IMG/VR virus record: IMGVR_UViG_3300046385_000126 | Coordinates: 64,001 to 101,004 of that record | From: a virus | Taxonomy: Duplodnaviria; Heunggongvirae; Uroviricota; Caudoviricetes | Direction: 5' to 3' (one strand) | Length of the DNA: 37,004 bases | Part shown: piece after piece, positions 4,416-23,274 of the stretch | How positions within the stretch are numbered: position 1 is the stretch's first letter | How the letters are laid out: each line of letters starts with the position of its first letter | Notes under the pieces: model-generated | What the model was told of the DNA's origin: nothing | The model's database searches: none | What the model saw: the letters and a program-made list of their open reading frames with translations, nothing else | Position numbers and translations under genes: made by a program

Positions 4416-7400
4416 ATGCCATTAGAAAACACACTTAGCGCTAGCCCATATTTTGACGATTATGATCAGGCTAAAGAATTTTATAAAGTTCTTTTTAAAC
4501 CTGGCGTTGCGTTACAAACGCGCGAGTTGAATCAGCTACAAAGCATTCTGCAAAACCAGATCGAGCGATTTGGTAACCATGTATTCAAGTCTGGCACCAT
4601 TATCAGTGGTGTCAACTTTTCATACATCCCAACATACACATACGTCAAGATTCTTGACACAGAGACTAGCGGCACACCGTCTCTTCCATCTTCATATGTT
4701 GACTACTTCGTCAAGAGTGATCTAAACCTGACTGCTCGTATCGTCAATTATGAAGATGGTTTGGAATCAAAATCTCCTGATTTGAAGACATTGTATCTTC
4801 AATATACTAACAGCTCACAACCTGACACTGCTAATGGTAATGCGATCTATACTACATTTAGACCTGATCAGTTGTTGACTGTTTATAGCAAAGACAACAA
4901 CCTATTCAGCGTCACTGTTAATAACGGTGGTCTGGGCTTTTCTAACGCAGATGCTGTTGTAGTAACGAGTGCGATCACCATTACTGGCAACACTATTGCG
5001 TTTGCAAATGGTGAGACTATTACACAGTCTACTACCGGTGCAAAAGCTGTTATTGCTTCCGTCAATACAACCGCAATTGCAAACACAACAATTTTGAAAA
5101 TTAAGCCACGCACGGCTGATTTGACTAACACATCGGTAAGTGCTAATGCGTGGACAATGTCGACTGGTTACAACGTTGTCGGTGGAACTAGTGGTGCAAC
5201 AGCAAACGTTGTGTCGCTGATTGGTAGTGGCGCAGTTGGTCTGGTTTCTACAGATACACAGGGTATTGTTCAGACACTTACACTAGCTGATGGTGGTGCT
5301 GGTTATGACTTCCTTCCTCACGTTACCCTAAAAACAGCTAACTCGACAGCAACTGTTAATAACCTTGACTTGCAACCAAGCAACTTCAAGGCTCTGATCA
5401 CTGTTGCTAATACCAGCACAAACGCCATCGGAACTGGATATGCATTTGGTGTGTCCGAAGGTATCATCTACCAAAAAGGTTACTTCCTTAAAGTAGAACC
5501 ACAAGTTATCACAGTTGATAAGTTTACAACTGCACCAGATAGCGTTGCTGTTGGTTTTAAGACTGTTGAAACCATTGTTGATGCTTATACAGATGAGTCT
5601 CTGTATGATAACGCTGCTAACACAACCAATTATACAGCTCCTGGTGCTGATCGTCTAACGCTTACTCCTGTTCTTACGTTGATGACGACAGCAGAAGCTC
5701 AGGCTAACGTAGACTTCTTTGCATTGGCTGAATGGAAAGAAGGGTTCCCATATAAGGAAAACCGTGTTTCTGTATACTCTAACCTTGCTGATGAACTAGC
5801 GCGCCGTACACGTGAGGCACAAGGTAACTTTGTTGTTGATTCATTCCAGGTTGGTACGAAAGAAAAGGCAACGCCAAACACATCAACTGTACAGACAGTT
5901 ATTGACCCTGGTCTGGCATACATCTCTGGTTACCGTGTTCAGACATCGTACAACAACTACCTTGATGTTGATCGCTCCACAACGAAGACTTCGTTGAGCA
6001 ACCAAAGTATTACTGTTAACTACGGTAACTACGTCAAGGTCAAAGAACTAGCTGGCTTGTTTAACTTCAAAGCTGGTGATACAGTCAGTCTTTATGATAC
6101 AGCAAAACAATATGTGTCAGCATCTACTATTAGTACAAACGGATCAATTGCACCTGCAGGTACCCAAATTGGTACTGCCCGCATTCGTTCACTAGTTATT
6201 GATTCTGGCAGCCCAGGCACACCAGACTGTGTATACAGAATGTATTTGTTTGATGTTGTAATGACTCCTGGACACTCTTTCCGTCAAGCGAGAAGCATAT
6301 TTTTCGATGGTACTGTTCAAGACGGTATCGCTGATATTGCTCTTGAGTATGATGCTACAACATCAGCAAACCTAGCATTCTTGAATGATGTGAATAACGA
6401 TCAGTTGATATTCAATATCGGTCAACCAGCGGTCGCTACACTAAGCGATCTTTCATATCAATATAGAACAGTATCCGATGCTACACTACAACTAACGTCT
6501 GGTGGCCAAGTTGTTATTGGTCCGTTGGGATCAGGCCTATCATTCCCATATAGTGATGGCACGCTTTCTTCAACACAGGAACGCGACTTCATCGTATTCC
6601 CAATTGCAAACACGCAAGCTGCAGCAAATATTGGTGGGTCATTAGCAGTCAATGCAAGCAACACTATCATTGTTGGAACAAGCACGACGTTTGCAAGTGA
6701 TCTACGTGTTGGTGACCATGTTAAGTTACTTGCCGCTAACGGATCCAGCATTGTTAGACAGGTTTCTTCAATTGCAAATAACACATACCTGACGCTGACG
6801 TCTAACGCATCTGTTTCGTTTACAGCAAACGCTGTAATATTCTATCCCGCTCTTTATCCGTTGGATGTTGAAAACAGAAGCGACCGCACCATCACTGTTT
6901 CTGCTAGTAGCAAGACTGTTACCATCAACATCAACAAAACGCTGGCCGGAACCGCTAACGTTATTGCTGTTTACAATATTAAGTCTACCGCAGCAACTCC
7001 TGTTACTAAAACAATCAAACGCGATATCTTTGTTAAGCTACACACAAGCAACAACGTGTCAAGCAACACCGGTCCTTGGGCACTTGGTCTTCCTGGTGCC
7101 GCTCGATTGAAGAAGGTGTTTTTGGGTACAGATGCTGCTGTTAACACATCGAGCACAGATGTAACAAAATACTTCTATGTAGATTCTGGTGATGATGAAA
7201 ACGCATACCGCACTTCTCGTTTGGTATTGAACACTGGTGCAAATCTTGCTGTTAATACCAACCAGTATATCATGGCTCAGCTTGATGTATTTACAAATAA
7301 CGGTCAAGAAGGTTTCTTTACTGTTGGTTCGTACAACATCGATGATACGAAGACTCTGGCAGCTTCAAACACCACAATTAACACACTGGAAATTCCAGAA

Positions 7401-9155
7401 ACGATCACAAACAAAGGCATTTATTATGACCAGCGTGATGTTATCGATTTCCGTCCATACGGTACTGCAACCGCTAACCTATCCACGACTGTGGCTGGCG
7501 CGACTGTCAATCCTGCAAATACGTTTGCATTGAGTGGTGACGACCAGTTCTTCCCTGTACCAGACTCCGCTGTTACGTTTGGTGTTGAATACTACAACAC
7601 ACGTATGGACCGCGTCGTTGTACGTCAAGACTCCACGTTCGAAGTGTTGAGTGGCGTGTCAACACTATCACAGCCTGTTCCACCCCGCGCACCAGCTGAT
7701 GCTGTTACGTTGGCGTTGTTGACTATTCCTCCATATCCTTCACTACCATCTGCATTCAACTCTACCACACTAGAGTTTGTTTCAAAAGGAGTTGGTAGCT
7801 CTAAAGGACCAATTTCAAAACGAACTGCTGATTATAAGATTAACACACGTGCATCCAAAGGTACACGTAACGAGCAGCCTCGTAGATACACTATGCAGGA
7901 TCTTGGCGCTATTGAGCGTCGACTTACCAACGTAGAGTATGCTGTCTCTTTGAGTCAAGTAGAATCTGCAATTAAAGATGTGGTTATCCCTAGCGGAATT
8001 ACACCAACAACCAGCCGCTTCAAGAATGGCTTCTTCGTTGAGCCTTTTGATGACTACACAAAAGTCGATCTATCGAGCCGCGAATATGCTGCAACAATTG
8101 ACCAGCAAAAAGGGTTTTTGAAACCACCTACAAAGCAGATTAACTTTGAAGCATGCTTTGATTTGACAGATACTGCTACAGCTAACTCCGTTGTGACTGG
8201 TAATACCCTGATGTTGCCTTTTACTGATGAGTTGCTGATCGATCAAAGTATCAAGAGCTCTGTCGTAGGGGTTGACGGTCACCGCATTCAATTCAACGGC
8301 GAAGGTACAATTACTCCTTCCTCCTTCTCCATTCAGACACGTGGCGAAGTCACGGTTGTGGAGGATCCGCCACCACTTCCACCACCTAACTATGGTGGTC
8401 CAGGCGATGATAGTGGATTCTTCGAGGGTCTAGTTGAGGGTGTGGGTGATTTGGTTGACGGTATTCTTTCGCCTATATCTGATGGCGATTGCTTCACACC
8501 TGAAACAATCATCTTTATGGCTGATGGATCATCCAAGCAAATTAAAGACGTTAAGGCTGGTGAACGTGTACTTGCATCTGATATGAAAACAGTCAACACT
8601 GTTCGTTATATTGAGATGTTGCGTAAGACGTCATGGGATTCATTGTATTCTCCATCACCATCGTTTAAGCCTTTTGTCACTGTTAACCACCCACTGATCA
8701 TTAACGGTGAATTGGTGTCTGTTGACCCTAATGAGACATACATGAGATATCCATGGTTAGGTATGTCCGTCAGCATTGATAAATATACCGATCACGTTGA
8801 AATGATTCCATCTGATAACCGACCAGTATATAACTTGTGGGTTGACGGGGACGGTACATATATTGTTAACGGCTTTGGTACCACATCGATCGTCGGTCAC
8901 GGCTACGCGTTGGCTGGTGCAGTTCTACGTGGCAGTATCAATCACGATCAAACGATGGAGATTATGCGTAGATTCACCTCAGATGGCCGCGAACTACAAT
9001 ATGGGTCATACATCGTAAACAAGGTGCTTGATAAACTAAACATTAAATGGGTAAATGACATGCTATTTGCAGTTGCCTTGCAGGACGGTGTTGCTAAGAA
9101 GGCACTATTCGGCATCACCAGATTCATTGGTACACTAGCCTGGATGGCAAAGTAA
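4416..9155 (+). CDS. vrlC: VrlC/DUF4815-type large baseplate/virion protein, N-terminal part, with C-terminal Hint domain (1579 aa)
   Basis: N-terminus 'SPYFDDYD...FYKVLFKPGVALQTRELNQLQSILQNQIERFG..FKSG' plus 'APGADRL', 'DPGLAYISGY', 'YTMQDLGAIERRL..VEY..SLS' and 'RFKNGFFVEPF' are VrlC-family motifs; follows gp8. Confidence 0.8.
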   Translation: MPLENTLSASPYFDDYDQAKEFYKVLFKPGVALQTRELNQLQSILQNQIERFGNHVFKSGTIISGVNFSYIPTYTYVKILDTETSGTPSLPSSYVDYFVKSDLNLTARIVNYEDGLESKSPDLKTLYLQYTNSSQPDTANGNAIYTTFRPDQLLTVYSKDNNLFSVTVNNGGLGFSNADAVVVTSAITITGNTIAFANGETITQSTTGAKAVIASVNTTAIANTTILKIKPRTADLTNTSVSANAWTMSTGYNVVGGTSGATANVVSLIGSGAVGLVSTDTQGIVQTLTLADGGAGYDFLPHVTLKTANSTATVNNLDLQPSNFKALITVANTSTNAIGTGYAFGVSEGIIYQKGYFLKVEPQVITVDKFTTAPDSVAVGFKTVETIVDAYTDESLYDNAANTTNYTAPGADRLTLTPVLTLMTTAEAQANVDFFALAEWKEGFPYKENRVSVYSNLADELARRTREAQGNFVVDSFQVGTKEKATPNTSTVQTVIDPGLAYISGYRVQTSYNNYLDVDRSTTKTSLSNQSITVNYGNYVKVKELAGLFNFKAGDTVSLYDTAKQYVSASTISTNGSIAPAGTQIGTARIRSLVIDSGSPGTPDCVYRMYLFDVVMTPGHSFRQARSIFFDGTVQDGIADIALEYDATTSANLAFLNDVNNDQLIFNIGQPAVATLSDLSYQYRTVSDATLQLTSGGQVVIGPLGSGLSFPYSDGTLSSTQERDFIVFPIANTQAAANIGGSLAVNASNTIIVGTSTTFASDLRVGDHVKLLAANGSSIVRQVSSIANNTYLTLTSNASVSFTANAVIFYPALYPLDVENRSDRTITVSASSKTVTININKTLAGTANVIAVYNIKSTAATPVTKTIKRDIFVKLHTSNNVSSNTGPWALGLPGAARLKKVFLGTDAAVNTSSTDVTKYFYVDSGDDENAYRTSRLVLNTGANLAVNTNQYIMAQLDVFTNNGQEGFFTVGSYNIDDTKTLAASNTTINTLEIPETITNKGIYYDQRDVIDFRPYGTATANLSTTVAGATVNPANTFALSGDDQFFPVPDSAVTFGVEYYNTRMDRVVVRQDSTFEVLSGVSTLSQPVPPRAPADAVTLALLTIPPYPSLPSAFNSTTLEFVSKGVGSSKGPISKRTADYKINTRASKGTRNEQPRRYTMQDLGAIERRLTNVEYAVSLSQVESAIKDVVIPSGITPTTSRFKNGFFVEPFDDYTKVDLSSREYAATIDQQKGFLKPPTKQINFEACFDLTDTATANSVVTGNTLMLPFTDELLIDQSIKSSVVGVDGHRIQFNGEGTITPSSFSIQTRGEVTVVEDPPPLPPPNYGGPGDDSGFFEGLVEGVGDLVDGILSPISDGDCFTPETIIFMADGSSKQIKDVKAGERVLASDMKTVNTVRYIEMLRKTSWDSLYSPSPSFKPFVTVNHPLIINGELVSVDPNETYMRYPWLGMSVSIDKYTDHVEMIPSDNRPVYNLWVDGDGTYIVNGFGTTSIVGHGYALAGAVLRGSINHDQTMEIMRRFTSDGRELQYGSYIVNKVLDKLNIKWVNDMLFAVALQDGVAKKALFGITRFIGTLAWMAK
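8490..8888 (+). other. Hint (Hedgehog/intein) domain, aa ~1359-1491 of the VrlC-like ORF
   Basis: Block A 'CFTPETIIFMADGSSKQIKDVKAGERVLA', block B 'VTVNHP' (TxxH), block F 'VYNLWVDGDGTYIVNG'; ends 'TTS' instead of 'HN-C/S/T'. Confidence 0.85.
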
Positions 9156-11644: not shown

Positions 11645-11862
11645 CGCCACTACAAAAAACTGAAGATGCGCGGTTTGCTCGTGATAAGCATAGTACAGCT
11701 ATCCTAAATATAGACAAAGCTGGCTACCAACAATTTAAGATGGAACGTGACCGCGCACTACAACTGCAACACGCTGTAGAGCAGGTTAGTGTTTTGCAGA
11801 GTGAGATGAGGGATATTAAACAGCTGCTTCAACAATTAGTAAACGGAAAAACAAATGGCTAG
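11641..11862 (+). CDS. Small conserved helical protein usually found downstream of VrlC (73 aa)
   Basis: ATGA overlap with the upstream stop; 'RDKHSTAILNID...EMRDIKQLLQQLV' pattern; coiled-coil-like C-terminus. Confidence 0.6.
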   Translation: MTPLQKTEDARFARDKHSTAILNIDKAGYQQFKMERDRALQLQHAVEQVSVLQSEMRDIKQLLQQLVNGKTNG

Positions 11863-13165
11863 AAGTATAGCAAACGTAGTAATCGCGACAGATTCATTCG
11901 CTTCATGGGTGGGTATCACCAACCAGATGGCGGATACCTTTACCAATTATGCGCTGACGGCAAACTCATCTGTAACAGGAGCTACTGTAACAGGTAACTC
12001 ACAGCTGATTGGTATCTTCGCGGCCAATACGGTTGCTGTTGGTACTGCTCTTCGCGGAGGATCTGTTAACGTATCATCCAATCTGAATGTTACATCCAAT
12101 CTGATCGTTACAGGAGCAACGGTAAACATTGCAAGTAACGTAGCAATCGTTGGCACCAACACATATATCAACGCAGTTACCACATATGTTAACGGCGGCC
12201 TTGCAAACGTTACCTCGAATGTAAGTATTGTCAACACAAACACCTCAATCAACGCAGCTGTGACCTATGTTGCAGGTGGACTTGCAAACGTTACATCTAA
12301 TGTCAGCATTGTTAACACAAATACATCAATTAGTTCAGCAGTAACATACGTTGCTGGCGGTCTTGCAAACGTTACGTCTAACGTTTCGGTCCAAAACGCA
12401 AACACATATATCAACGCGACAGCGTTTGGTGTTGCGGGCGTGTCTACCCTAACAGGTACAACAACGCTGAAAGCTAACACAACGCTAACTAACGTTGTCT
12501 TATCTTCAAATGCAACTGTTAGCAACCTTCAAATCAGTGTAAACGCCCTAAACATTGTAGCTACAGCAAATATTAATGGTAGTCTGAGCGTATCATCGTT
12601 AAACTCTGTAGGTAACGCTGTTGTTAACGGTGCATTTACTGTCAACAACACAGCTGCTGTAGGTAATACGACAATTACAGGATTTGCCAACGTATCCACA
12701 ACATTACAGGTTGATGGCAATACTACGCTGAATGCAACGTTAATTGCAAATAATATTGTAGCCAACGGCACCACAACCCTTTCAAATACAAACTTGAATG
12801 GTGTAACATTACTTGCTAATAACGTCGTGTTGTCTGTTGTTGCTAATACGAACATTGGAAACGCTAATACCCTTGGAGCCTTTACAGCTGTAGAGGTTGC
12901 CAGCTTTCCTATTGCATCCTACACAGGGGCAAAGATCACATCAAAAGTATCATCATTGAGTGGTGCTAGCAACCAAGTGCAGGAATTGCTAATTGCGCAA
13001 AACACAACAGATGTTTACATGACCGTGTATGGTACTGTTGCTGCACCAGCAACAGCAAACCTTGGTGTATTCACAGCATCTATAAATACTACAGCTATAT
13101 CAATCAAGTTCTTGCAAACGAGCGCCAATTCGAGCGTTAAGATGTTTGCGCAATACATCAAATAA
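11855..13165 (+). CDS. Fibre-like virion structural protein with beta-rich N/T/V/S repeats (436 aa)
   Basis: Low-complexity beta-strand composition; 27-aa internal repeats; C-terminal module 'SFPIASYTGAKI...QELLIAQNTTDVYMTVYG' of a kind seen in T4-like structural proteins. Confidence 0.6.
   Translation: MARSIANVVIATDSFASWVGITNQMADTFTNYALTANSSVTGATVTGNSQLIGIFAANTVAVGTALRGGSVNVSSNLNVTSNLIVTGATVNIASNVAIVGTNTYINAVTTYVNGGLANVTSNVSIVNTNTSINAAVTYVAGGLANVTSNVSIVNTNTSISSAVTYVAGGLANVTSNVSVQNANTYINATAFGVAGVSTLTGTTTLKANTTLTNVVLSSNATVSNLQISVNALNIVATANINGSLSVSSLNSVGNAVVNGAFTVNNTAAVGNTTITGFANVSTTLQVDGNTTLNATLIANNIVANGTTTLSNTNLNGVTLLANNVVLSVVANTNIGNANTLGAFTAVEVASFPIASYTGAKITSKVSSLSGASNQVQELLIAQNTTDVYMTVYGTVAAPATANLGVFTASINTTAISIKFLQTSANSSVKMFAQYIK
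12150..12420 (+). repeat. 81-nt (27-aa) tandem repeat, about 3 copies
   Basis: TTGCAAAC recurs at 12201, 12282 and 12363; unit approximately 'TYVAGGLANVTSNVSIVNTNTSINAAV'. Confidence 0.9.
13081..13088 (+). promoter_or_regulatory. Possible internal T4-type late promoter TATAAATA
   Basis: Exact consensus inside the 436-aa ORF, about 85 nt upstream of the ATG at 13174. Confidence 0.45.
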
Positions 13166-13173
13166 GGTAAGTA

Positions 13174-14148
13174 ATGGCTGCAGGCAATACACAGTTTAAA
13201 GCGGAGAATGGACTCTTTGTACAGGGGACTGCTAACGTTGCTGGAGATTTGAAGGTCGATGGCAACCTTCTTGTCACAGGTAACATTGTGTCTTCAGGTA
13301 CCGCTGCTGGTGACTTCATTCCTTTAAACAATACATACTCACTTGGAAATACCACATCCCGATGGTCTTTGTTGGGTGTAGATGGCAATTTCTCCGGCAA
13401 CCTAACTGTAAGCACAGTTACTACTCTCAGCGATACTGCATCATCCAACCTTATTCCAACAGTAAACAACGCACCTTTAGGATCAGCAACACGTCGTTGG
13501 GCGATTACTGCTAATACAGGTGACTTTCTAAACATTACGACGACACAGGCAATTGCTACTGTTAACCTAACATCAAACGGTACATTGTCTGCAGGTGTGT
13601 TGGTTGCAAATGCTACTCATGTCGTTATAACAAACGGAACACTGAGTGTAAATACTGGTTCGAAGACATCGATCTCTGCAACTGGCAACTCCACTTATAG
13701 TAGCCTTTCCCTTAATAACGATGTAACATCTATCGGCGGCAATGTTGCTTTTGATACAGATCTTGTTGTTATCGATGCGGTCAACAACCGTATTGGTTTA
13801 AAAGCAACGACACTATCCTCTAGTGCTCTTGCTACAATCACTGGTAACGTTGAATTCAGCACTGCAAACACAGGTATTCGTTTACAGACATCAAACGCAA
13901 CGCATAATGCATCCATTGTTATGGTTGCGGCCAACACCAGTAACAGTCGCTTGACATTCTCAACATATGATACATCTAATTCTACAGTAGAGAACGGTGG
14001 TTTCGTATTTGGTGGTATGGTGAATAGCACATCAACACAGACGTTGTTATCATTTAGTAACGCTTCTATCAAATATAAAACTGGTAACGTCGCTCACGCA
14101 GGCAACTTCGGGATTTACGATGTAAACGGCACACGCTTAGGACCATAA
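13174..14148 (+). CDS. Putative fibre/virion structural protein (324 aa)
   Basis: 'GDLKVDGNLLVTG', 'GDFIPLNNTYSLGNTTSRW' and 'LGSATRRW' motifs are typical of phage fibre shafts; SD-like AAGGT upstream. Confidence 0.6.
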   Translation: MAAGNTQFKAENGLFVQGTANVAGDLKVDGNLLVTGNIVSSGTAAGDFIPLNNTYSLGNTTSRWSLLGVDGNFSGNLTVSTVTTLSDTASSNLIPTVNNAPLGSATRRWAITANTGDFLNITTTQAIATVNLTSNGTLSAGVLVANATHVVITNGTLSVNTGSKTSISATGNSTYSSLSLNNDVTSIGGNVAFDTDLVVIDAVNNRIGLKATTLSSSALATITGNVEFSTANTGIRLQTSNATHNASIVMVAANTSNSRLTFSTYDTSNSTVENGGFVFGGMVNSTSTQTLLSFSNASIKYKTGNVAHAGNFGIYDVNGTRLGP

Positions 14149-14149
14149 A

Positions 14150-15649
14150 ATGGCAAGACCACTGCGCGCGGTATACGCGAACACCACATACAGTAACGGT
14201 GTGCGGGAGATGTCTGATAGCGAACTTAATGATCTCGTCGCTCCTCTGATACTAACTTATGTAACATCGAACCCTAGTGTTGCGTATAGTACATCGCTGC
14301 GTATCAATACAGCAGGATTATACGATGTCAATGTAGGGGTTACAAACGATACTCGCAGCGATATTGTCGGTGCACACCCAGCATCAAACTCTACCATAAG
14401 CACATACACTTTATATCAGAGTGCGCGACCAATGGCTTTGAGCCTGAGTGCTCGCCCTGTTGCATATGTTCAGGTCGGTGATGAGTGGCAAATCAAATCG
14501 ATGTCTGATCAAGAAATGATTGATCAGGTTGTGCCTTCTATTGTTCAGACCATGATCACTGGTGGCCAAGGTGCTTATTATATTGGACCAACATCAAGTG
14601 GAGCTCCTGTAGGGGGAACGTGGACGTCGTATGGAAATATGACCGACACATATTATGTTAACAGCACACTAACAACAGAACAGTATACGTTATGGCAGCG
14701 TACGTCTGGAACAACTGCTGGTACTATTAGACCTCTTAAAGTTGATTTGTCTGGCAACCTAGTCGAAATGACTAACGCTGATATAACCCAGCTGTACCAG
14801 GCTGTCGGTGAGTATATTCGTACAACGGGCATTGGTCAATACGTCATCCAACCAATTGCGCCGTCTACAGGTACATGGATGCAGCGTGGATACTTTACAA
14901 ATACGGTAAACAACTTACAAGACACCGCTTATAACGGTTCATACATTGGGTCGTTTACGAGTCCATATACACGTGCGTTTACAGGCACGTATAATAGTGC
15001 ATTCACAGGAAATTACACTGGTGCATATTCGCGTATTTTTACAGGCGCATATGCTGGTGGGTATAATAACACGTTTACAGGGTTATACAACCAGGCATTT
15101 ACTGGTGCGTTCAGTGGTGGATATGTAGGTACGTTCTCTGGAATTTATTCAAAGCTGTTCACAGGCGCGTATACAGGAGTGTATGCGGGTGCGTATAATG
15201 GCTTTTTCACTGGGACGTATATTACTAATATTTCTAAATCGTACCAGAACCCATTCTCTGGTGTGTGGTATACTGGTTCTTACGCCAATTATTATAGTGG
15301 TAGTTATGCAAGCGCGTTTACAGGTTTGTATACTGGTGCATACTCAGGATCATACCAAGGCAATTTCACTGGCGTATACAATACAACATTTACCGGCGTG
15401 TATAACCGATCGTTTACAGGATCATTCACAGGAATATACACAGGAACTTTTAGTGGTTTATACACTGGTGGATACACCAGTGCATTTACAGGAATATATG
15501 CTGGAGCATATACAGGTGCATTTAGCGGCGCATATAGCGGAGCGTTTACTGGACTATATAACACTTCATTCACCGGAGCCTACACTGGTTTGACTGTACT
15601 AAATACAACATCGACCACAGTATACAAACTGTGGGTTAGAACAGCCTAA
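14150..15649 (+). CDS. [Y/F]-x-G-x tetrapeptide-repeat protein, short paralog (499 aa)
   Basis: About 260-aa N-domain of three related modules (RP[LV]...MS/T[DN]...G.GxY...GTW), about 220 aa of repeats (14930-15592), C-terminus KLWVRTA. Confidence 0.85.
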   Translation: MARPLRAVYANTTYSNGVREMSDSELNDLVAPLILTYVTSNPSVAYSTSLRINTAGLYDVNVGVTNDTRSDIVGAHPASNSTISTYTLYQSARPMALSLSARPVAYVQVGDEWQIKSMSDQEMIDQVVPSIVQTMITGGQGAYYIGPTSSGAPVGGTWTSYGNMTDTYYVNSTLTTEQYTLWQRTSGTTAGTIRPLKVDLSGNLVEMTNADITQLYQAVGEYIRTTGIGQYVIQPIAPSTGTWMQRGYFTNTVNNLQDTAYNGSYIGSFTSPYTRAFTGTYNSAFTGNYTGAYSRIFTGAYAGGYNNTFTGLYNQAFTGAFSGGYVGTFSGIYSKLFTGAYTGVYAGAYNGFFTGTYITNISKSYQNPFSGVWYTGSYANYYSGSYASAFTGLYTGAYSGSYQGNFTGVYNTTFTGVYNRSFTGSFTGIYTGTFSGLYTGGYTSAFTGIYAGAYTGAFSGAYSGAFTGLYNTSFTGAYTGLTVLNTTSTTVYKLWVRTA

Positions 15650-15668: not shown

Positions 15669-18600
15669 ATGCCAGTAAAACCATTAAAATACATTGAAAT
15701 AAGCGGATCACCATCAACTCAGATTATGTCCAACACGGACATTACTGACTATGTGGCAAAATTAATAGGTACCGAATTTGCTAGCACCACAGGTGTTGGT
15801 TCCCTCGGTGTTGGTTCGCTGGCCAATGGAACATCTATTGGTACATGGGTGGACACGTACTATCCAAACGCAATCGGCGACCATCCCATTGACCCTGCTG
15901 CGGTCACAGTTTCAAACACAACACTTTATCAAGACGTCTCTAACGGATCGTTGACGGGTATTTTTTCACGCCCTGTTGGTTGGGATACTTCAAACAACGT
16001 ACCACAACTCTTATCCGATTCCGACATCGACACAAGCATCACGTCTGTTATTGCTAACTATGTTGTTAATGGTGGTGTTGGTTCATATGTCCTACAACCA
16101 ACTGCTCCAGCAACAGGAACATGGGTTTCACGTGGAACACTTACAAACACACAAGCACCTAGTGTAACCAACACGACTACGTTGTGGCAGAAGACAGCTG
16201 AATCTACAGGATCTGCTGTACGTTTGTTGAAACTGGCAAACGGTGGCTTCCAGCAGTTTTCTGATGCTGATATTCGAAACCTGACGTTTAAACTCCGCAA
16301 TTACATTGTTAATAGCGGCATTGGCAAATATGTCCTTTCAACGACCACGCCAGTAACTCCTGGTACATGGGTGCAAGCAGGCACTGGTTTTGACGATATA
16401 CGTCTATCACTTGAAGATGGATTTTACGCTGGTGCATATAACAGTACGTTCACTGGCGGTTATACTGCTACATACTCTGGTAATTACAACAACACCTTCT
16501 CTAGTGCATTTACCAGCACATATTCATCTTCTTATTCAGGTGCATATAACTCGGCATTTAGCAGAGCCTACACAAGTGTGTATACAGGCGCCTTTACCGG
16601 ACAATATAACCAAGCGTTCACTGGTGCGTTCAGTAGAGCGTTTACCGGCGCCTTTACCGGACAATATAACCAAGCGTTTACTGGTAACTTTACTGGTGTA
16701 TATGCTAACGCGTTCACGGGACAGTACTCTGGTAATTATGTTGGCGCATTCAGTACAGTTTTTAGCGGTGCATATACTGGTGCATACAATCAGACATTTA
16801 CCGGGTCGTACATTGGTACGTACCTAAGCAACTATACAGGAGCTTTCAGTGGAGCCTATGCCTCTACGTTCACTGGAACTTTTACTGGCGCATACACAGC
16901 AGCTTACAGTGCTGTGTTCACTGGTCAATACTCTGGTGGCTACACAAGTGCATTTACTGGTAGCTATACTTCAGCATATACGACTGCATACACGGGTGCC
17001 TACACAGGAGCATATTCGAACGTATTTTCTGGTGCCTACACAGGCGGTTATACTACAACGTTTACTGGTCTGTATTCAGGCGCATATTCAAGAACGTTCA
17101 CTGGCGCATATGCTGGCTCTTATACGGGCGTTTTTAATCAGACATTCACTGGTTCGTACCTAGGTGGTTATGTAGGATCATTTACCGGCGCATATGCTGG
17201 TGCTTACTCACGTGTGTTTTCAGGATCCTACACTGGCATATATTCTGGTGGATATACTGGTGCGTTTTCTGGATCATATACTGGTATCTACACTGCTGCA
17301 TATACAGGTTTATATTCAGGTGGGTACACAGGAGCGTTTACTGGGATCTACACTGGTGCATATACTGGTGCATTCAATCAAAGCTTTAGTGGTTTGTATT
17401 CCGGTTCATATACAAGTGCGTTTACTGGTCTGTATTCCGGTACATACACAAGTGCATTCTCAGGATCATATACGGGCGCGTATACAGGCGCATATAGCCA
17501 AGTGTTCACTGGTTCATATTCTGGTGGATATGTTGGCACATTTACAGGCGCGTATGCTGGTGCGTATTCACGTGTATTCACAGGATCGTACACTGGTGCA
17601 TATACAGGAACATACAACCAAACGTTTACTGGATCATATTCTGGTGGGTACGTAGGATCATTTACTGGTGCTTATGCCGGCGCTTATTCGCGTGTGTTTA
17701 CTGGATCATACACAGGTGCATACACGGGCATTTATAACCAAACCTTTACTGGATCTTATTCTGGTGGGTACGTAGGATCATTTACTGGTGCTTATGCTGG
17801 TGCTTATTCTCGCGTTTTCACTGGATCGTATTCTGGTATCTACACCGGCGTATATAATCAGACGTTTACTGGATCATATTCTGGTGGGTATGTTGGTTCA
17901 TTTACTGGTGCTTATGCTGGCGCTTATTCACGAGTATTCACTGGCTCTTACACAGGCGCATACACAGGCGTATACAATCAGACATTTACTGGATCGTATT
18001 CTGGTGGATACACTCGAGCGTTTACTGGCGCATATGTTGGTGCTTACTCGCGTGTGTTCTCAGGATCATATACTGGCCTCTACACAGGATTATATACTGG
18101 CATATACACTGGACTATATTCTGGTGGATATGTAGGATCATTTACAGGTCTATACTCCGGCACATATTCAAGAATATTCTCTGGATCTTACACAGGTTTA
18201 TACTCTGGTGTGTATCAGAATACATTTACTGGCTTGTACTCTGGTGTGTATCAAAGCACATTTACAGGTGCATACTCTGGTAACTACACTCGTGCATTTA
18301 CTGGTAGTTATGCTGGTAACTATATTGCATCATATGCTGGTGCATATGCTGGTACGTACAATACAGGTTATATTGGTTATTATGCACCCGGCGGTGCTGT
18401 GTACTACACTGGTTTATATACTGGCTTTTATTCTGCATATTATGCTGGTAACTATATAAACCCTTTTAATGGAGCTACGTATACTGGTGGCTATTTGGGA
18501 TCACGAGCTCGTAGTTTTGCTGGTGGATATACAGCTGGCGCTGGTTATGCTGGAACATACACAGGTTTCTATGCTGCTGGCTATCTCGGGTCCTATCTTG

Positions 18601-20780
18601 GATACTATGGTGGCTCACGTGCCCGAGCATATAGAAACCCATATAATGCTGTATGGTACACGGGTTACTATGCTGCTGGTTACGCTGGTTGGTATTCTGG
18701 CTATTATGCTGGCTCACGTGCACGTAGTTATACTGGATACTACGCTGGATCGCGCGCGCTTACATTTACAAGAGCGTTTACTGGTAGCTACACTGGATAC
18801 TACAACAGAACATTTACTGGTGCTTATAGCGGCGCCTATAACGGTGCATTCACGGGAATTTATTCTGGTGGATATATTGGATCCTTTACTGGCGCATATT
18901 CCGGTGGCTACATTGGCTCATTTACAGGGGCATATGCCGGTGCGTATGCTGGCAGCTACCAAGGAAACTTTACGGGTGCGTACTCTGGCGCATACAATAA
19001 CACCTTCACTGGCATTTACTCTGGTGGATATGCAGGAGCGTACGCTGGTGCATACGCTGGCGCGTATGTTGGAAACTACACTGGATCGTTTAGCGGTATA
19101 TACAGTGGTGCATACAACCAAACGTTCACAGGAGCATATTCAGGTGGTTATGTAGGTGCGTTCACTGGTGTTTGGGCGGGTGCATATGCTGGTAATTACT
19201 CCGGATCATTCAGTGGATTGTATAGTGGAGCATACAACCAAACATTTACAGGGGCATATTCTGGTGGATATGTAGGCGCATTTACCGGTGCCTGGGCTGG
19301 TGCTTATGCGGGCAATTACTCCGGATCATTTAGCGGTCTATACTCTGGTGCGTATAACAACACCTTCACCGGTGCATACTCAGGTGGATACGTTGGTGCG
19401 TTTACCGGTGTTTGGGCAGGGGCATATGCAGGTAATTACTCTGGATCATTCAGCGGCCTGTTTTCAGGTGCATACAACCAAACATTCACTGGAGCTTATT
19501 CAGGTGGATACGTAGGTGCATTTACCGGAGTTTGGGCAGGAGCATATGCAGGTAATTACTCCGGTTCGTTTAGTGGTTTATACAGCGGAGCATATAACCA
19601 AACGTTTACTGGTGCATATGCTGGTGGTTATGTTGGTACATTCTCCGGTATTTACTCTGGCAACTTCGTTGGATCGTATTCGAATTCGTTCACTGGCGCT
19701 TTTGCTGGAGCATACAATCAAGCGTTCACTGGCGCTTTCGCTGGTAACTACACAGGCGTATTCTCAGGAATATATTCTGGTGGGTACTCTGGATCATACA
19801 ACCAGGTATTCTCTGGTGCATATTCTGGTACCTACAATACAGGATACTCTGGCGCATATGTTGGAAATTACAACAGCGTTTTCACTGGCGCTTTTGCTGG
19901 CGCATATGTAGGCAACTACTCAGGTTCCTTTACCGGATTGTACAGCGGAGCATACACTCAAACATTTACAGGTGCATATGCAGGTGGATACACTGGTGCA
20001 TTCACAGGGGTTTGGACTGGATTCTACTCTGGCGGTTATGTTGGAACGTTTACTGGTGCATATGCTGGTGGTTATAATTCCACATTCTCCGGCATATATG
20101 TCGGTGGTTATGCTAACACGTTCTCTGGTGTTTATAGCGGATCTTACAACACAACCTACACTGCAGTATATTCAGGTGCATATAACCAAACATTCTCTGG
20201 TGCATACTCTGGTGGTTATACTGGATCGTTTAGTACAGCATACACTGGTGGATATTCATCAGGGTTTACTGGTGCGTTTACTGGCCTATACAACCAAACG
20301 TTCACCGGTAACTTCTCTGGTGCATATGCAGGTGGATACACCGGCACATTCTCTGGCGCATATGTCGGTGGGTATGGCAACACATTCTCTCGCACATTTA
20401 CAGGAATATACACCGGCGTGTATAGTAACGTATTTACAGGCGTTTATAACCAAGCATTCACTAGCCAATTTACCGGTGTATACAATCAAGCATTTACTGG
20501 TGCGTTTAGTAGTGCATTTACAGGTCAGTTCACTGGTCAATATGCGCAACAATTTACAAGCGTATACACTGCTGCATACACAGGCGCGTTTACAGGATCA
20601 TATACATCAGCATATACTGGCCAGTATACTCAAATGTTTACAGGAACATTTACCGGCGTTTATTCCGCAACTTACACCGGTCTATATACAAGAGCATATG
20701 TAGGAACATACACAGGACTGACAATTGTTTCTACACCACAAACAGTTGCGACACTTAAACTTTGGGTACGGACATCATGA
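15669..20780 (+). CDS. [Y/F]-x-G-x tetrapeptide-repeat protein, long paralog (1703 aa)
   Basis: Same three-module N-domain, about 1430 aa of repeats (16422-20720), C-terminus KLWVRTS; uninterrupted 5.1-kb ORF. Confidence 0.9.
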   Translation: MPVKPLKYIEISGSPSTQIMSNTDITDYVAKLIGTEFASTTGVGSLGVGSLANGTSIGTWVDTYYPNAIGDHPIDPAAVTVSNTTLYQDVSNGSLTGIFSRPVGWDTSNNVPQLLSDSDIDTSITSVIANYVVNGGVGSYVLQPTAPATGTWVSRGTLTNTQAPSVTNTTTLWQKTAESTGSAVRLLKLANGGFQQFSDADIRNLTFKLRNYIVNSGIGKYVLSTTTPVTPGTWVQAGTGFDDIRLSLEDGFYAGAYNSTFTGGYTATYSGNYNNTFSSAFTSTYSSSYSGAYNSAFSRAYTSVYTGAFTGQYNQAFTGAFSRAFTGAFTGQYNQAFTGNFTGVYANAFTGQYSGNYVGAFSTVFSGAYTGAYNQTFTGSYIGTYLSNYTGAFSGAYASTFTGTFTGAYTAAYSAVFTGQYSGGYTSAFTGSYTSAYTTAYTGAYTGAYSNVFSGAYTGGYTTTFTGLYSGAYSRTFTGAYAGSYTGVFNQTFTGSYLGGYVGSFTGAYAGAYSRVFSGSYTGIYSGGYTGAFSGSYTGIYTAAYTGLYSGGYTGAFTGIYTGAYTGAFNQSFSGLYSGSYTSAFTGLYSGTYTSAFSGSYTGAYTGAYSQVFTGSYSGGYVGTFTGAYAGAYSRVFTGSYTGAYTGTYNQTFTGSYSGGYVGSFTGAYAGAYSRVFTGSYTGAYTGIYNQTFTGSYSGGYVGSFTGAYAGAYSRVFTGSYSGIYTGVYNQTFTGSYSGGYVGSFTGAYAGAYSRVFTGSYTGAYTGVYNQTFTGSYSGGYTRAFTGAYVGAYSRVFSGSYTGLYTGLYTGIYTGLYSGGYVGSFTGLYSGTYSRIFSGSYTGLYSGVYQNTFTGLYSGVYQSTFTGAYSGNYTRAFTGSYAGNYIASYAGAYAGTYNTGYIGYYAPGGAVYYTGLYTGFYSAYYAGNYINPFNGATYTGGYLGSRARSFAGGYTAGAGYAGTYTGFYAAGYLGSYLGYYGGSRARAYRNPYNAVWYTGYYAAGYAGWYSGYYAGSRARSYTGYYAGSRALTFTRAFTGSYTGYYNRTFTGAYSGAYNGAFTGIYSGGYIGSFTGAYSGGYIGSFTGAYAGAYAGSYQGNFTGAYSGAYNNTFTGIYSGGYAGAYAGAYAGAYVGNYTGSFSGIYSGAYNQTFTGAYSGGYVGAFTGVWAGAYAGNYSGSFSGLYSGAYNQTFTGAYSGGYVGAFTGAWAGAYAGNYSGSFSGLYSGAYNNTFTGAYSGGYVGAFTGVWAGAYAGNYSGSFSGLFSGAYNQTFTGAYSGGYVGAFTGVWAGAYAGNYSGSFSGLYSGAYNQTFTGAYAGGYVGTFSGIYSGNFVGSYSNSFTGAFAGAYNQAFTGAFAGNYTGVFSGIYSGGYSGSYNQVFSGAYSGTYNTGYSGAYVGNYNSVFTGAFAGAYVGNYSGSFTGLYSGAYTQTFTGAYAGGYTGAFTGVWTGFYSGGYVGTFTGAYAGGYNSTFSGIYVGGYANTFSGVYSGSYNTTYTAVYSGAYNQTFSGAYSGGYTGSFSTAYTGGYSSGFTGAFTGLYNQTFTGNFSGAYAGGYTGTFSGAYVGGYGNTFSRTFTGIYTGVYSNVFTGVYNQAFTSQFTGVYNQAFTGAFSSAFTGQFTGQYAQQFTSVYTAAYTGAFTGSYTSAYTGQYTQMFTGTFTGVYSATYTGLYTRAYVGTYTGLTIVSTPQTVATLKLWVRTS
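16587..16678 (+). repeat. Exact 32-nt direct repeat with 60-nt period
   Basis: GGCGCCTTTACCGGACAATATAACCAAGCGTT at 16587-16618 and 16647-16678. Confidence 0.9.
17500..18190 (+). repeat. 120-nt (40-aa) super-repeat, left arm, about 6 copies
   Basis: CTGGTGG(A/G)TA at 17521, 17641, 17761, 17881, 18001 and 18121; unit YNQTFTGSYSGGYVGSFTGAYAGAYSRVFTGSYTGAYTGx. Confidence 0.9.
18900..19680 (+). repeat. 120-nt (40-aa) super-repeat, right arm, about 6-7 copies
   Basis: C(T/A/C)GGTGG at 18901, 19021, 19141, 19261, 19381, 19501 and 19621; unit YNQTFTGAYSGGYVGAFTGVWAGAYAGNYSGSFSGLYSGA. Confidence 0.9.
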
Positions 20781-21217
20781 AGAGAACTATTAAAAATCCA
20801 CACTGGACAAACAACGCACGTACTGTCCTTTCTGCTGAATTCCATTATGAAGATGGGCGCGTGCTTACAGCTACGATCAGTGATTCAGATAAGGGCAATC
20901 CAGATCTGGTTGAAATTTTGGCGAACTTTACGGCTGAGGAGCTAGAAGCAAACACTGCTAGAGCTATCAAGCGCCAAAGTCAGGAAATGGAATCCAGACG
21001 CCGCCAAGAAGAAGCAATGGCAGAAAAAGCACTGCAAGAGGAACTGTTTGCAGTTAAACTAAAAGCTTTCGAGCTAGATGTTGTCAAAGGTACAACTAAC
21101 CGTGCCTTGAAATCACAAATTCGCCGAGCAAAGAGTGTATTTGAGGTGTACGCATACACAGCAGCCTTGATTCTTGACAACCAACAAAACCCACCAACTG
21201 ATTCGACTGCGGAGTAA
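20777..21217 (+). CDS. Hypothetical protein, possible fibre assembly chaperone (146 aa)
   Basis: ATG at 20777 overlaps the upstream TGA (ATGA), so it is preferred over the TTG at 20762; beta-rich N-half and charged helical C-half; position right after a fibre-like gene. Confidence 0.5.
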   Translation: MKRTIKNPHWTNNARTVLSAEFHYEDGRVLTATISDSDKGNPDLVEILANFTAEELEANTARAIKRQSQEMESRRRQEEAMAEKALQEELFAVKLKAFELDVVKGTTNRALKSQIRRAKSVFEVYAYTAALILDNQQNPPTDSTAE

Positions 21218-21220
21218 ATA

Positions 21221-21931
21221 ATGGATATTGATAATGGATTTCTTCTCGTGGCATCGGTCACGGAAGATTATGTGAAGTCTGCAAATTATTCGGCTGATAG
21301 CATCCGCGATTATTATCCAGATGCTCATATTACTTTATTCGTGCCGCCTGCACTTCGTCACTTGGCAGATGATTCTGCATTTGATTTGATTGTATCAGAC
21401 CCAGATGTACCAAATCACACACGGACAAAATTGTATGCTTTGTCTCGTACTCCATATAAGAATTTAACTGTATATGTGGATGCTGACATGGAATGCATGC
21501 ACGAAGACGTTCAAAACATTTGGAACGAAATGCCCGACGACTGTGATATCTTGATCACCAAGATCAGACCATACAATGGTAAGATTTCAAAATGGGCAAC
21601 AGGTGAAATGATCTACCATGGTGGTTTCTTCATGTACCGCACCAATCCAAAGACAATTGATTTTATGGATCGTTGGTGGGTGGACTACCATAAACAACGT
21701 GCAGAGCCATGGCCATATGATGAAAGCGAGATTCCAGTCACACTAAGACCATGGGACCAGTTTACATTTTGGAAGCTGCTAAATATTGACAAACTAGATA
21801 CAAATGTTCAAGTGTTTAAAGACGATGCTCGATGGAACTTTGTTAACGGTTATCGCTTGAACGAAAACAAAGACCCAATCGTTTTCTACCACCACACTAT
21901 TCCATCCAGACGCGAGGACACTAAAAAATGA
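21221..21931 (+). CDS. GT-A fold glycosyltransferase / nucleotide-diphospho-sugar transferase (236 aa)
   Basis: 'TKLYALSRTPY..TVYVDAD' (DxD after a hydrophobic strand), 'HGGFFMY', 'WDQFTFW', 'RWNFVNGY', terminal 'FYHHT'. Confidence 0.75.
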   Translation: MDIDNGFLLVASVTEDYVKSANYSADSIRDYYPDAHITLFVPPALRHLADDSAFDLIVSDPDVPNHTRTKLYALSRTPYKNLTVYVDADMECMHEDVQNIWNEMPDDCDILITKIRPYNGKISKWATGEMIYHGGFFMYRTNPKTIDFMDRWWVDYHKQRAEPWPYDESEIPVTLRPWDQFTFWKLLNIDKLDTNVQVFKDDARWNFVNGYRLNENKDPIVFYHHTIPSRREDTKK

Positions 21932-22548
21932 AATCAATTGATATTGTAAACCTAGAATTAAAAAACATCCTTGACGAGTTTATGGCTGTCCTGCAGAACT
22001 GCGATCGCTCGGAATATCCGTATGGAAATTGGACAGATATTACTCCTGACTATGCATGTGGTATGGAATACCTAGAACATATGCAGGGTAAAAAGGTTGA
22101 TGGCTTTCCGGAAAAAACACTAGGGGTTGATCTATCACGCTTTACTCCACCACAAGAGTCGTTGCGCAAAGCTCTTACCAAACTCGATCATGATTTGATT
22201 GCATGGTCCGGCTCTCGAAACAATGCGGTCAAGATGTTGTATCCTAAGGGTGGTTACATGGGCTGGCACCACAATGCAAACGCAGCTGGTTACAATATTC
22301 TGTTGTCCTGGTCCAAAGATGGTAAAGGCTACTTCCGGTACCAGGATCCAATCACAAAGGAAATTGTTACAATGCAGGATACGCCTGGTTGGACATGCAA
22401 GGTTGGGTACTACGGACCATGGCATGAAAAAGACCGTATTTACTGGCACTGTGCTAATGCAGCACACGAAGAAAGATTCACGCTAGGCTACATTATTCCT
22501 CATGAAGGAATGTGGCAAGATATGTGTGACGATATTCAGAGCAAATAA
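21928..22548 (+). CDS. 2OG-Fe(II) oxygenase-like / cupin-fold protein (206 aa)
   Basis: 'LYPKGGYMGWHHN', distal 'YWHCA' and 'ERFTLGYII' follow the double-stranded beta-helix pattern; ATGA coupling to the upstream GT. Confidence 0.6.
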   Translation: MKSIDIVNLELKNILDEFMAVLQNCDRSEYPYGNWTDITPDYACGMEYLEHMQGKKVDGFPEKTLGVDLSRFTPPQESLRKALTKLDHDLIAWSGSRNNAVKMLYPKGGYMGWHHNANAAGYNILLSWSKDGKGYFRYQDPITKEIVTMQDTPGWTCKVGYYGPWHEKDRIYWHCANAAHEERFTLGYIIPHEGMWQDMCDDIQSK

Positions 22549-23273: not shown

Positions 23274-23274
23274 A

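What the first reader, a model, noticed from the sequence alone, without database searches (positions are those of the whole stretch)
14150..15649. Short paralog reproduces the same design: central NPF..WY motif at the arithmetic midpoint of its repeats
Seen: the repeats run 14930-15592 (midpoint about 15261) and 'YQNPFSGVWYTG' has NPF..WY at 15248-15271. The long paralog has the related 'NPFNGATYTG' (18459) and 'NPYNAVWYTG' (18636) flanking its own midpoint. Both share three N-terminal modules (R/KP[LV]...[ML]S[DN].[DE]...G.GxY...GTW) and the ending YTGLT...KLWVRT[A/S]. Inference: a tandem pair of short and long versions of one fibre family, about 110 versus about 700 residues per arm, possibly co-assembling or acting as two filament lengths. 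The short one is a tractable model for the family.
Basis: partly seen in the sequence, partly recalled or inferred. Interest (0 to 1): 0.7.

Follow-up and report, generated by a model that had tools for sequence, protein, structure and literature searches.

The report
Short out-and-back hairpin phage fibre
A 499-residue protein of an uncultured freshwater T4-like phage has a three-part base from which one beta-hairpin is stretched by two matched 110-residue arms of four-residue repeats, so its far tip lies in the middle of the sequence; this fibre design has not been described, and this short copy is small enough to test at the bench.

Summary

**What the gene is.** 14150-15649 encodes three related N-terminal modules, a tract of strict four-residue repeats (aromatic-x-Gly-x) at residues 261-480, and a C-terminal strand.

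**Main new result.** That C-terminal strand is the missing last strand of module 3. The whole repeat tract is therefore an insertion in one hairpin loop, so the chain must go out and come back.

**Three independent tests agree:**
- Arm lengths match across 77 relatives, while the centre ranges from a 10-residue turn to a 631-residue insert carrying a lectin-type domain.
- The register fixed at the base predicts the turn at Ser370-Gly371, inside NPF-SG-VWY.
- Facing residues co-vary only in that register: Tyr faces Gly, and non-Gly faces Phe (p 2e-4 short, 3e-20 long, 3e-16 in 32 other proteins).

**The pair.** Short and long genes belong to two old paralogue types kept in fixed order. Length is not tied to type, and some phages carry only one type, so obligate co-assembly is unlikely.

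The scan had already reached the hairpin reading for the long paralogue. A first-reader note on an identical sequence filed as another genome gives the same insertion reading.

The parts
14150..15649 (+). Gene for the short (type A) hairpin fibre, 499 aa, with ATG one base after the upstream stop codon
   Evidence: The conserved M-[AG]-R-P-L N-terminus in relatives supports this start rather than Met21, which a database gene call used.
14150..14428 (+). Base module 1 (aa 1-93)
   Evidence: Module alignment; AF2 pLDDT above 90.
14429..14719 (+). Base module 2 (aa 94-190), ending in YTLWQRT
14720..14929 (+). Base module 3, first part (aa 191-260), up to the strand that leads into the stalk
   Evidence: strand 243-265
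14930..15247 (+). Outgoing arm (aa 261-366) of aromatic-x-Gly-x units
15248..15271 (+). Distal turn motif NPFSGVWY (aa 367-374). The predicted two-residue turn is Ser370-Gly371, and the one-residue phase slip is at Trp373/Tyr374.
   Evidence: This is the most variable part against the nearest orthologue (55% identity).
15272..15589 (+). Returning arm (aa 375-480), in register i + j = 741 with the outgoing arm
15590..15646 (+). C-terminal strand (aa 481-499, ending LWVRTA), which completes base module 3
   Evidence: Aligns with the last strand of modules 1 and 2; AF2 strand 474-497 with pLDDT 96-98; L-W-x-R ending nearly universal in the family.
15669..20780 (+). Long (type B) paralogue, 1703 aa, with the same design and arms of 687 and 655 residues

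Best explanation
The short paralogue is a phage fibre whose far end lies in the middle of its sequence.

**Base.** Residues 1-260 plus 481-499 fold into a compact base made of three related alpha/beta modules. These are probably arranged as a pseudo-threefold beta-prism.

**Stalk.** In module 3, the loop of the last beta-hairpin is replaced by 220 residues of aromatic-x-Gly-x units. The chain runs out for 110 residues, turns at Phe369-Ser370-Gly371-Val372 inside NPFSGVWY, and runs back for 110 residues antiparallel to the first arm. Residue i lies beside residue 741 - i.

**Packing.** In that register every aromatic ring faces the Gly position of the other arm, giving a checkerboard of rings and glycines on one face. 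Thr/Ser and small residues lie on the other face. Where the Gly position carries a side chain, the facing ring is Phe instead of Tyr.

**Size and role.** A fully extended arm would be about 36 nm long (110 x about 0.33 nm; inferred). The mid-sequence turn is the distal tip and the likely contact point with the host surface. The base would be the end that docks to the virion.

**What is shown and what is inferred.**
- Shown: split module, matched arms, register and covariation.
- Inferred: the beta-ribbon conformation of the whole stalk, presence on the virion, and host binding.
- Unknown: oligomeric state.
For: **1. Split module.**
- The C-terminal strand aligns with the last strand of modules 1 and 2.
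- Relatives of 273-296 aa have an intact module 3 with only a short loop.
- AF2 puts residues 1-260 and 478-499 at pLDDT above 90, with long strands 243-265 and 474-497.
- A 393-aa relative gives strands 247-273 and 364-391.

**2. Matched arms.**
- In 77 two-arm relatives the arm lengths correlate (r = 0.91).
- Exact or near-exact equalities occur: 213/214, 131/131, 121/121, 95/95, 75/75, 55/55, 43/43.
- Meanwhile the centre varies from 10 to more than 600 residues.

**3. Register.**
- Nearly invariant Tyr261 and Gly480 give i + j = 741, which places the centre at Ser370-Gly371 inside the motif.
- The same calculation lands on the x-Gly after Pro-Tyr in P0011 and P0022, and on the Thr of Pro-Tyr-Thr-Gly in P0049.

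**4. Mirror covariation, present only at the predicted register.**
- Short protein: 28 of 37 Gly face Tyr and 11 of 13 non-Gly face Phe, p = 2e-4.
- Long protein: p = 3e-20.
- 32 other family members pooled: p = 3e-16.

**5. Tip behaviour.**
- Against the nearest orthologue, identity is 93% in the base, 81% in each arm and 55% at the tip. That orthologue also has a 44-residue insertion beside the tip carrying its own turn motif.
- A relative with a 59% identical base carries a Laminin_G_3 (concanavalin A-like) domain between 213- and 214-residue arms (E 2.8e-8).

**6. Gene context.** The gene lies between baseplate wedge genes and neck genes, among other fibre-like genes, and this neighbourhood is conserved in relatives.

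**7. Base fold.** The best structural matches in two separate models are MABP-type beta-prisms: 8b6v, 3tow, 2qp2 and 6sb1, Z 5.3-7.2. In the second search the next hit drops to Z 2.5.
Against: - AF2 does not model the stalk with confidence: pLDDT is 26-57 in the short protein and 30-46 in the relative.
- In the short protein's monomer model, arm 1 resembles a pentapeptide-repeat beta-helix rather than a ribbon (2bm4, Z 8.3).
- No solved protein has a free two-stranded ribbon of this length, so a further layer of assembly may be needed.
- No virion proteomics, expression data or cultured phage exist for this family. Only one of 50,697 GenBank phage records holds a relative, and it is annotated hypothetical.
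- The arm-length measure is crude, and about 30% of relatives score an asymmetry above 0.2.
- Comparison with the nearest orthologue showed no clear compensating changes between facing positions (read by eye).
Confidence: 0.7

Rival explanations
1. The out-and-back topology holds, but the stalk is not a single-chain ribbon. Three (or another number of) chains pack their hairpins into a six-stranded needle like that of T4 gp37, or arm 1 of one chain pairs with arm 2 of another.
For: - Phage fibres are usually trimers, and the T4 gp37 needle is a trimer whose D10 domain (residues 811-881 and 1010-1026) is split by the needle, with a Gly-Phe contact between subunits (PMC6957217, read).
- A ribbon face covered with Tyr/Phe would gain from burial.
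- AF2 as a monomer leaves the stalk at low confidence.
Against: - The base is itself a three-module pseudo-trimer in one chain, and only module 3 carries a stalk. This fits a single chain.
- The perforin-2 MABP domain shows that a single-chain prism can carry a protruding two-stranded hairpin (PMC7593815).
- The stalk has no His, so it cannot have gp37-type metal sites.
- The mirror covariation cannot tell pairing within one chain from pairing between chains.
Confidence: 0.3
2. Each arm folds as a beta-solenoid with four-residue sides, like a shrunken pentapeptide-repeat helix, rather than as an extended strand.
For: In the AF2 monomer model, residues 268-370 superpose on pentapeptide-repeat proteins (2bm4 Z 8.3, rmsd 1.7 over 76 residues; also 3pss and 2g0y) and show strand bridges every fourth residue.
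Against: - That part of the model has pLDDT 50-57, and arm 2 has 26-49.
- A solenoid predicts neither equal arms nor residue-by-residue mirror covariation at one register.
- No regular longer period is evident in the order of Tyr and Phe units of the short protein that could define a coil (read by eye from the unit list).
- The DNA repeats are weak and diverged.
- The period is 4, not 5, and Pfam finds no pentapeptide family.
Confidence: 0.07
3. The Tyr/Gly-rich tract is a disordered or self-associating low-complexity region with no fixed fold, and the symmetry is incidental.
For: - The composition is Gly 19%, Thr 16%, Tyr 15% and Ser 11%, with no acidic residues.
- AF2 confidence is low.
Against: - The four-residue phase is exact over 100 or more residues.
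- The arms match across the family.
- The covariation is specific to one register.
- The periodicity is kept in the protein although the DNA-level repeats are weak and diverged.
Confidence: 0.04
4. The protein has the hairpin design but is not a host-binding tail fibre. It could be a head or neck decoration, or a non-virion protein.
For: - There is no proteomic or imaging evidence.
- No known baseplate-attachment domain was detected.
- The short protein's tip is only a turn, not a domain.
Against: - The gene sits in a conserved place among wedge and fibre genes.
- The tip is the most variable part against the nearest orthologue.
- A relative carries a lectin-type domain at the tip.
Confidence: 0.2

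Closest known systems
Receptor-binding needle of the T4 long tail fibre, gp37 domains D10-D11 (PMC6957217)
   Same: - A base domain split in sequence (811-881 and 1010-1026) by an elongated out-and-back beta structure.
- The distal, receptor-binding tip lies mid-sequence.
- Gly-aromatic contacts occur in the stem.
- It is encoded in a T4-type tail module.
   Different: - gp37 is a trimer held by seven iron ions on His-x-His motifs; here the stalk has no His.
- gp37 has no tetrapeptide repeat.
- The gp37 needle spans about 130 residues, against 220 here and about 1430 in the long paralogue.
- No sequence similarity was found.
MABP beta-prism domain of perforin-2/MPEG1 with its inserted hyper-extended beta-hairpin (6sb1; PMC7593815)
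   Same: - A pseudo-threefold beta-prism from which one hairpin is greatly lengthened and whose tip touches the target surface.
- Both base models match this fold class best (Z 5.3-7.2).
   Different: - Sequence identity is 5-12%, with no Pfam match.
- The modules here carry extra helices.
- The perforin-2 hairpin is far shorter and not repetitive.
- It is a eukaryotic pore-forming protein, not a virion part.
Pentapeptide-repeat proteins (MfpA, Qnr; right-handed quadrilateral beta-helix)
   Same: - A short, strict repeat with one large inward-type residue per unit.
- The low-confidence AF2 model of arm 1 superposes on them (Z 8.3).
   Different: - The period is 4, not 5.
- The two arms are mirror-matched.
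- The chain must return to its start.
- There is no family match.
3347-aa hypothetical protein of Phage C48C1 (OQ984149, Kyanoviridae)
   Same: - It is the only relative in GenBank phage records and belongs to type B.
- It sits in the same place after the wedge genes and is followed by the same glycosyltransferase and 206-aa genes.
   Different: - It is uncharacterised.
- It is about seven times longer.
- Its base matches only weakly (E 7e-10 to the type A profile).

Membership tests
Hairpin-fibre family defined here (three-module base, aromatic-x-Gly-x stalk, L-W-x-R ending) | Three tandem base modules homologous to the family profile | tested here: met
   244 clusters at 50% identity match residues 1-262; 40 close relatives; internal module matches.
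Hairpin-fibre family defined here (three-module base, aromatic-x-Gly-x stalk, L-W-x-R ending) | Two arms of equal length in a four-residue period, with a C-terminal strand completing module 3 | tested here: met
   Arms of 110 and 110 residues under i + j = 741. The strict L-[WYF]-[VIL]-R ending is present in 115 of 183 proteins, and looser L-W-x-R forms in most of the rest.
T4 gp37 needle (D10-D11) | Base domain split by an out-and-back needle | tested here: met
   This is an analogy of design, not homology.
T4 gp37 needle (D10-D11) | His-x-His motifs that bind iron along the axis | tested here: not met
   No His in residues 261-481.
T4 gp37 needle (D10-D11) | Homotrimer | not testable with these tools
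T4 gp37 needle (D10-D11) | Sequence similarity to gp37 or its collar domain | tested here: not met
   No match in Pfam, PHROGs, NCBIfam or PDB sequences.
MABP-type beta-prism | Pseudo-threefold beta-prism fold | tested here: inconclusive
   Z 5.3-7.2 over 113-124 residues in two models. These are the only hits above Z 5 in the second search, but the values lie in the range the tool calls middling.
MABP-type beta-prism | Sequence-profile membership | tested here: not met
   No Pfam match at E 0.01 or better.
Pentapeptide repeat (PF00805) | Five-residue period with the A(D/N)LXX consensus | tested here: not met
   The period is 4, and there is no Pfam match.
Collagen-like or polyglycine-II fibres | Three-residue period with Gly at every third position | tested here: not met
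   Gly recurs every fourth residue, in step with an aromatic two residues away.

The most novel reading that the evidence does not exclude
The stalk is a free-standing, single-chain, two-stranded beta-ribbon with no hydrophobic core. It is held together only by a checkerboard of aromatic rings lying over glycines, and its length is set in steps by the number of matched tetrapeptide pairs: about 36 nm here and over 200 nm in the neighbouring gene. This would be a new class of fibrous protein, and a natural rod of adjustable length onto whose tip phages graft binding domains.
Probability: 0.3. Interest if true: 0.85.

Novelty: new variant of a known kind. Interest (0 to 1): 0.7.

Why it matters
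**Fibre design.** Phage fibres decide which hosts are infected, yet this family has no annotation, no solved relative and essentially no cultured representative. It spans 244 clusters at 50% identity. The design explains how one gene family yields fibres from under 300 to over 3000 residues. Units are added in matched pairs on both arms, and new binding domains are inserted at the centre without disturbing the base.

**Protein science.** The strict Tyr-faces-Gly and Phe-faces-side-chain rule is a clean natural example of cross-strand pairing that could guide the design of long beta-ribbons.

**Why the short copy.** At 499 residues, with a two-residue tip, it is the practical object for a first structure and for tests of the register.

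Tried and rejected

- Foldseek against PDB and BFVD gave no match at E 0.001 or better.
- AlphaFold DB clusters returned only uncharacterised family members.
- Pfam, PHROGs and NCBIfam on the whole protein, and a family profile against PDB sequences, gave nothing.
- Pfam on ten central inserts of relatives gave nothing at E 0.01. A shorter cut of one insert then matched Laminin_G_3.
- The first related-loci run, with the full-length alignment, failed for lack of conserved columns. An alignment of the base alone worked.

**Searches with no useful outcome**
- Public sequencing runs: no RNA holder was listed.
- Contigs from four freshwater runs matched with 0 to 8 differing letters per piece and revealed no insertions or deletions, so they added nothing on variation. 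No piece spans the whole gene.
- Literature searches for tetrapeptide-repeat phage fibres, for phage C48C1 and for aromatic-glycine hairpins found no description of this family.

**Analyses that gave no signal**
- Large-versus-small pairing at repeat position 3 showed nothing at the predicted register.
- The position-1 signal at shift 0 is linked to the Gly/non-Gly signal and is not counted as independent.
- I looked for compensating changes between facing positions in the window protein and its 93%-identical orthologue and saw none clearly.

**ORFs set aside**
- The overlapping ORFs 15183-15593 (+) and 15304-15573 (-) are taken as by-products of the repeat in other frames.

Full report
**Setting**

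The window carries the tail and neck module of a T4-like phage.
- It encodes baseplate wedge proteins (gp6/gp7- and gp8-like), a 1579-aa DUF4815 protein, several fibre-like proteins and the two repeat genes.
- These are followed by a small ORF, glycosyltransferases, neck proteins (gp13/gp14-like), a gp15-like sheath stabiliser, the large terminase and the tail sheath.
- The gene occurs in several freshwater metagenomes.
- Among 50,697 GenBank phage records, only Phage C48C1 (Kyanoviridae) has a relative. It is a 3347-aa hypothetical protein in the same position.

**Observation**

- The ORF 14150-15649 gives 499 residues.
- The repeat tract runs from Tyr261 (nt 14930) to residue 481 (nt 15592).
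- NPFSGVWY is residues 367-374 (nt 15248-15271).
- The long gene has NPF at 18459 and NPY at 18636.
- The repeat is a strict four-residue unit: aromatic, then Thr/Ser/Asn/Ala, then Gly (73%), then a small or aliphatic residue.
- The phase is constant through arm 1, slips by one residue at Trp373/Tyr374, and is constant again through arm 2.
- The two proteins share their N-terminal 260 residues (33% identity, E 7e-27) and their C-terminus (52% identity, E 3e-19).
- At the DNA level only weak 12-nt arrays remain (65-80% matches, under five copies). The periodicity is therefore maintained in the protein, not produced by recent slippage.

**The stalk is an insertion in one hairpin loop**

- Each base module ends with a strand of the type Y-T-L-W-Q-R-T.
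- Modules 1 and 2 have this strand about ten residues after a conserved G-T-W...D-T strand.
- In module 3 the strand is missing at that place and reappears as the very C-terminus, V-Y-K-L-W-V-R-T-A.
- When residues 191-258 are joined to 479-499, the result aligns along its length with modules 1 and 2 of both paralogues.
- Relatives of 273-296 residues have an intact module 3 with only a short loop there.
- AlphaFold2 with a 66-sequence alignment gives pLDDT above 90 for residues 1-260 and 478-499, with two long strands at 243-265 and 474-497.
- A 393-aa relative gives the same picture, with strands 247-273 and 364-391.
- The two ends of the repeat tract therefore sit side by side, and the chain must go out and return. 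I reached this reading. A first-reader note on an identical sequence filed under another genome says the same.

**Family-wide symmetry**

- The base finds 244 clusters at 50% identity.
- In 77 members with two detectable arms, the arm lengths correlate at r = 0.91 and the median asymmetry is 0.11.
- Many are equal or differ by one residue: 213/214, 131/131, 121/121, 95/95, 75/75, 55/55, 43/43, 31/31.
- The centre meanwhile ranges from 10 to 631 residues in those cases.
- The less symmetric cases largely reflect a crude arm detector that stops at the first irregular unit.
- In the member with 213/214 arms, whose base is 59% identical to the short paralogue, the centre contains a Laminin_G_3 (concanavalin A-like) domain (E 2.8e-8, above the Pfam cut-off).
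- The middle of the sequence thus behaves as a site where a distal module is mounted.

**Register**

- Tyr261 and Gly480 are nearly invariant in the alignment.
- If they face each other, residue i faces residue 741 - i. Every aromatic of one arm then faces the Gly position of the other, all along both arms.
- The centre of that register is 370.5, between Ser370 and Gly371. This is the middle of NPF-SG-VWY and fits a two-residue turn flanked by Phe369 and Val372.
- The same calculation from base anchors lands on the x-Gly after Pro-Tyr in P0011 and P0022, and on the Thr of Pro-Tyr-Thr-Gly in P0049.

**Mirror covariation**

- In this register, 28 of 37 Gly positions face Tyr and 11 of 13 non-Gly positions face Phe (Fisher p = 2e-4).
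- At the twelve other shifts tested, p is 0.03 or weaker.
- Every Phe in either arm of the aligned units (units 0-24) either follows a non-Gly unit in its own strand or faces one across the hairpin.
- The long paralogue shows the same peak at shift 0 (p = 3e-20), with minor peaks at plus and minus three units that reflect its 12-residue super-period.
- Pooled over 32 other family members, shift 0 gives p = 3e-16 and is the best shift in 13 of the 32.
- A mirror-image dependence between two stretches of one polypeptide has no obvious origin other than spatial contact. I take this as the strongest evidence for antiparallel pairing in a defined register.
- It cannot say whether the partner arm belongs to the same chain.

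**Base fold**

- Sequence searches find no known family.
- Foldseek finds only uncharacterised relatives.
- An exhaustive structural comparison of both models gives, for the base, the MABP-type beta-prisms: the Mp2Ba1 C-terminal domain, the MVB12B MABP domain, the Plu-MACPF C-terminal domain and the perforin-2 P2 domain.
- These score Z 5.3-7.2 over 113-124 residues. In the second search they are the only chains above Z 5, and the next hit is Z 2.5.
[quoted passage not shown] That is the same idea on a much smaller scale.
- The similarity is of fold only, and the Z values are middling.

**What remains uncertain in the stalk**

- AF2 leaves it at pLDDT 26-57.
- In the monomer model, arm 1 resembles a pentapeptide-repeat beta-helix (Z 8.3).
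- I rank that below the ribbon for two reasons. A solenoid explains neither the equal arms nor the mirror covariation, and no regular longer period is evident in the order of Tyr and Phe units of the short protein.
- The stalk has no His, Asp, Glu, Cys or Met, so metal sites of the gp37 type are excluded.

**The pair**

- A tree of base domains from the window and ten related loci splits into two groups with 99/99 support.
- In all four phages that carry both types (the window, L012, L005, L009), the first gene is type A and the second is type B.
- Lengths are not tied to type. Among the tree rows, type A spans 393-1201 aa and type B spans 332-3232 aa.
- L010 and L006-L008 carry only type A within the DNA held. 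L014 and C48C1 carry only type B.
- The duplication is therefore old and both copies are usually kept. Each can evidently stand alone, which argues against obligate co-assembly.
- In this phage the two would give rods of about 36 nm and over 200 nm if fully extended (inferred from 0.33 nm per residue).

**Tip variability**

- Against its nearest orthologue (IMG/VR locus L002), the short protein is 93% identical in the base, 81% in each arm and 55% at the tip.
- The orthologue has a 44-residue insertion next to the tip that carries its own S-P-F-S-G turn between a few repeat units. This is a self-contained side hairpin that leaves the main register intact.
- The long paralogue likewise has two N-P-[FY] motifs around its centre.
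- This pattern of a conserved base and a variable tip is what is expected of a host-recognition element. That is an inference.

**Verdict**

- The out-and-back reading is well supported by independent lines of sequence evidence.
- The fibre role is likely but unproven.
- The co-assembly idea is not supported.
- The design combines two known ideas, a split base with an out-and-back needle and a prism with a hyper-extended hairpin. It adds a repeat chemistry and a scale that I could not find described.

Noticed in passing
window 14150-14212: A database gene call for this protein starts at Met21 (479 aa, P0003). Relatives conserve M-[AG]-R-P-L from residue 1, and the ATG at 14150 lies one base after the upstream stop codon, so the longer form is the likely product.
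   Followed up: partly
L002:10001-11632: The nearest orthologue (93% identical base) has a 44-residue insertion beside the tip with a second S-P-F-S-G turn flanked by a few repeat units. It looks like a self-contained side hairpin, which would give a forked tip.
   Followed up: partly
protein P0043, residues 655-880 (metagenomic relative): A Laminin_G_3 (concanavalin A-like) domain sits exactly between arms of 213 and 214 residues. Other relatives have centres of 300-1000 residues with no Pfam match.
   Followed up: partly
protein P0058 (5768 aa, metagenomic): A giant protein matches the base module in 20 separate stretches and has no four-residue repeat tract. The module can evidently be used as a chain of beads as well as a three-part base.
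   Followed up: no
window 20762-23853, and L001, L006, L007, L009, L010, L012, L014: The genes after the fibre gene or genes recur in every related locus, including phage C48C1: a small ORF, a GT-A-like glycosyltransferase, a 206-aa protein and, in most loci, a minus-strand glycosyltransferase. Many non-Gly units of the stalk read Asn-x-Thr/Ser (for example YNQT, YNTT, YNRS), which look like glycosylation sequons.
   Followed up: partly
window 23904-24233: This 109-aa ORF is homologous to the gene annotated 'L-shaped tail fiber protein assembly' in C48C1 and to an ORF with a weak LtfC Pfam hit in L014. It is a candidate fibre-assembly helper conserved in all these loci.
   Followed up: partly
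window 4416-9155: The 1579-aa DUF4815 structural protein has weak Hint-module matches at residues 1356-1393 (PF01079, E 1.2e-5; PF05203, E 7e-5). This could be a self-cleaving or intein-like element inside a virion protein.
   Followed up: no
window 11855-13165 and 13174-14148: The two genes just upstream encode Asn/Thr/Ser/Val-rich proteins with their own short repeats. One has a weak bactofilin-like hit (E 0.008), suggesting beta-helical fibres. Both are conserved next to the hairpin fibre genes in relatives.
   Followed up: partly
window 15183-15593 (+) and 15304-15573 (-): ORFs of 136 and 89 aa lie inside the repeat tract in other frames. They are most likely by-products of the repeat composition.
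   Followed up: no
window 14150-15649: Contigs from other freshwater metagenome runs from different studies carry stretches of this gene that are mostly identical, with a few diverged short pieces. The phage genotype therefore appears to recur in freshwater samples.
   Followed up: partly
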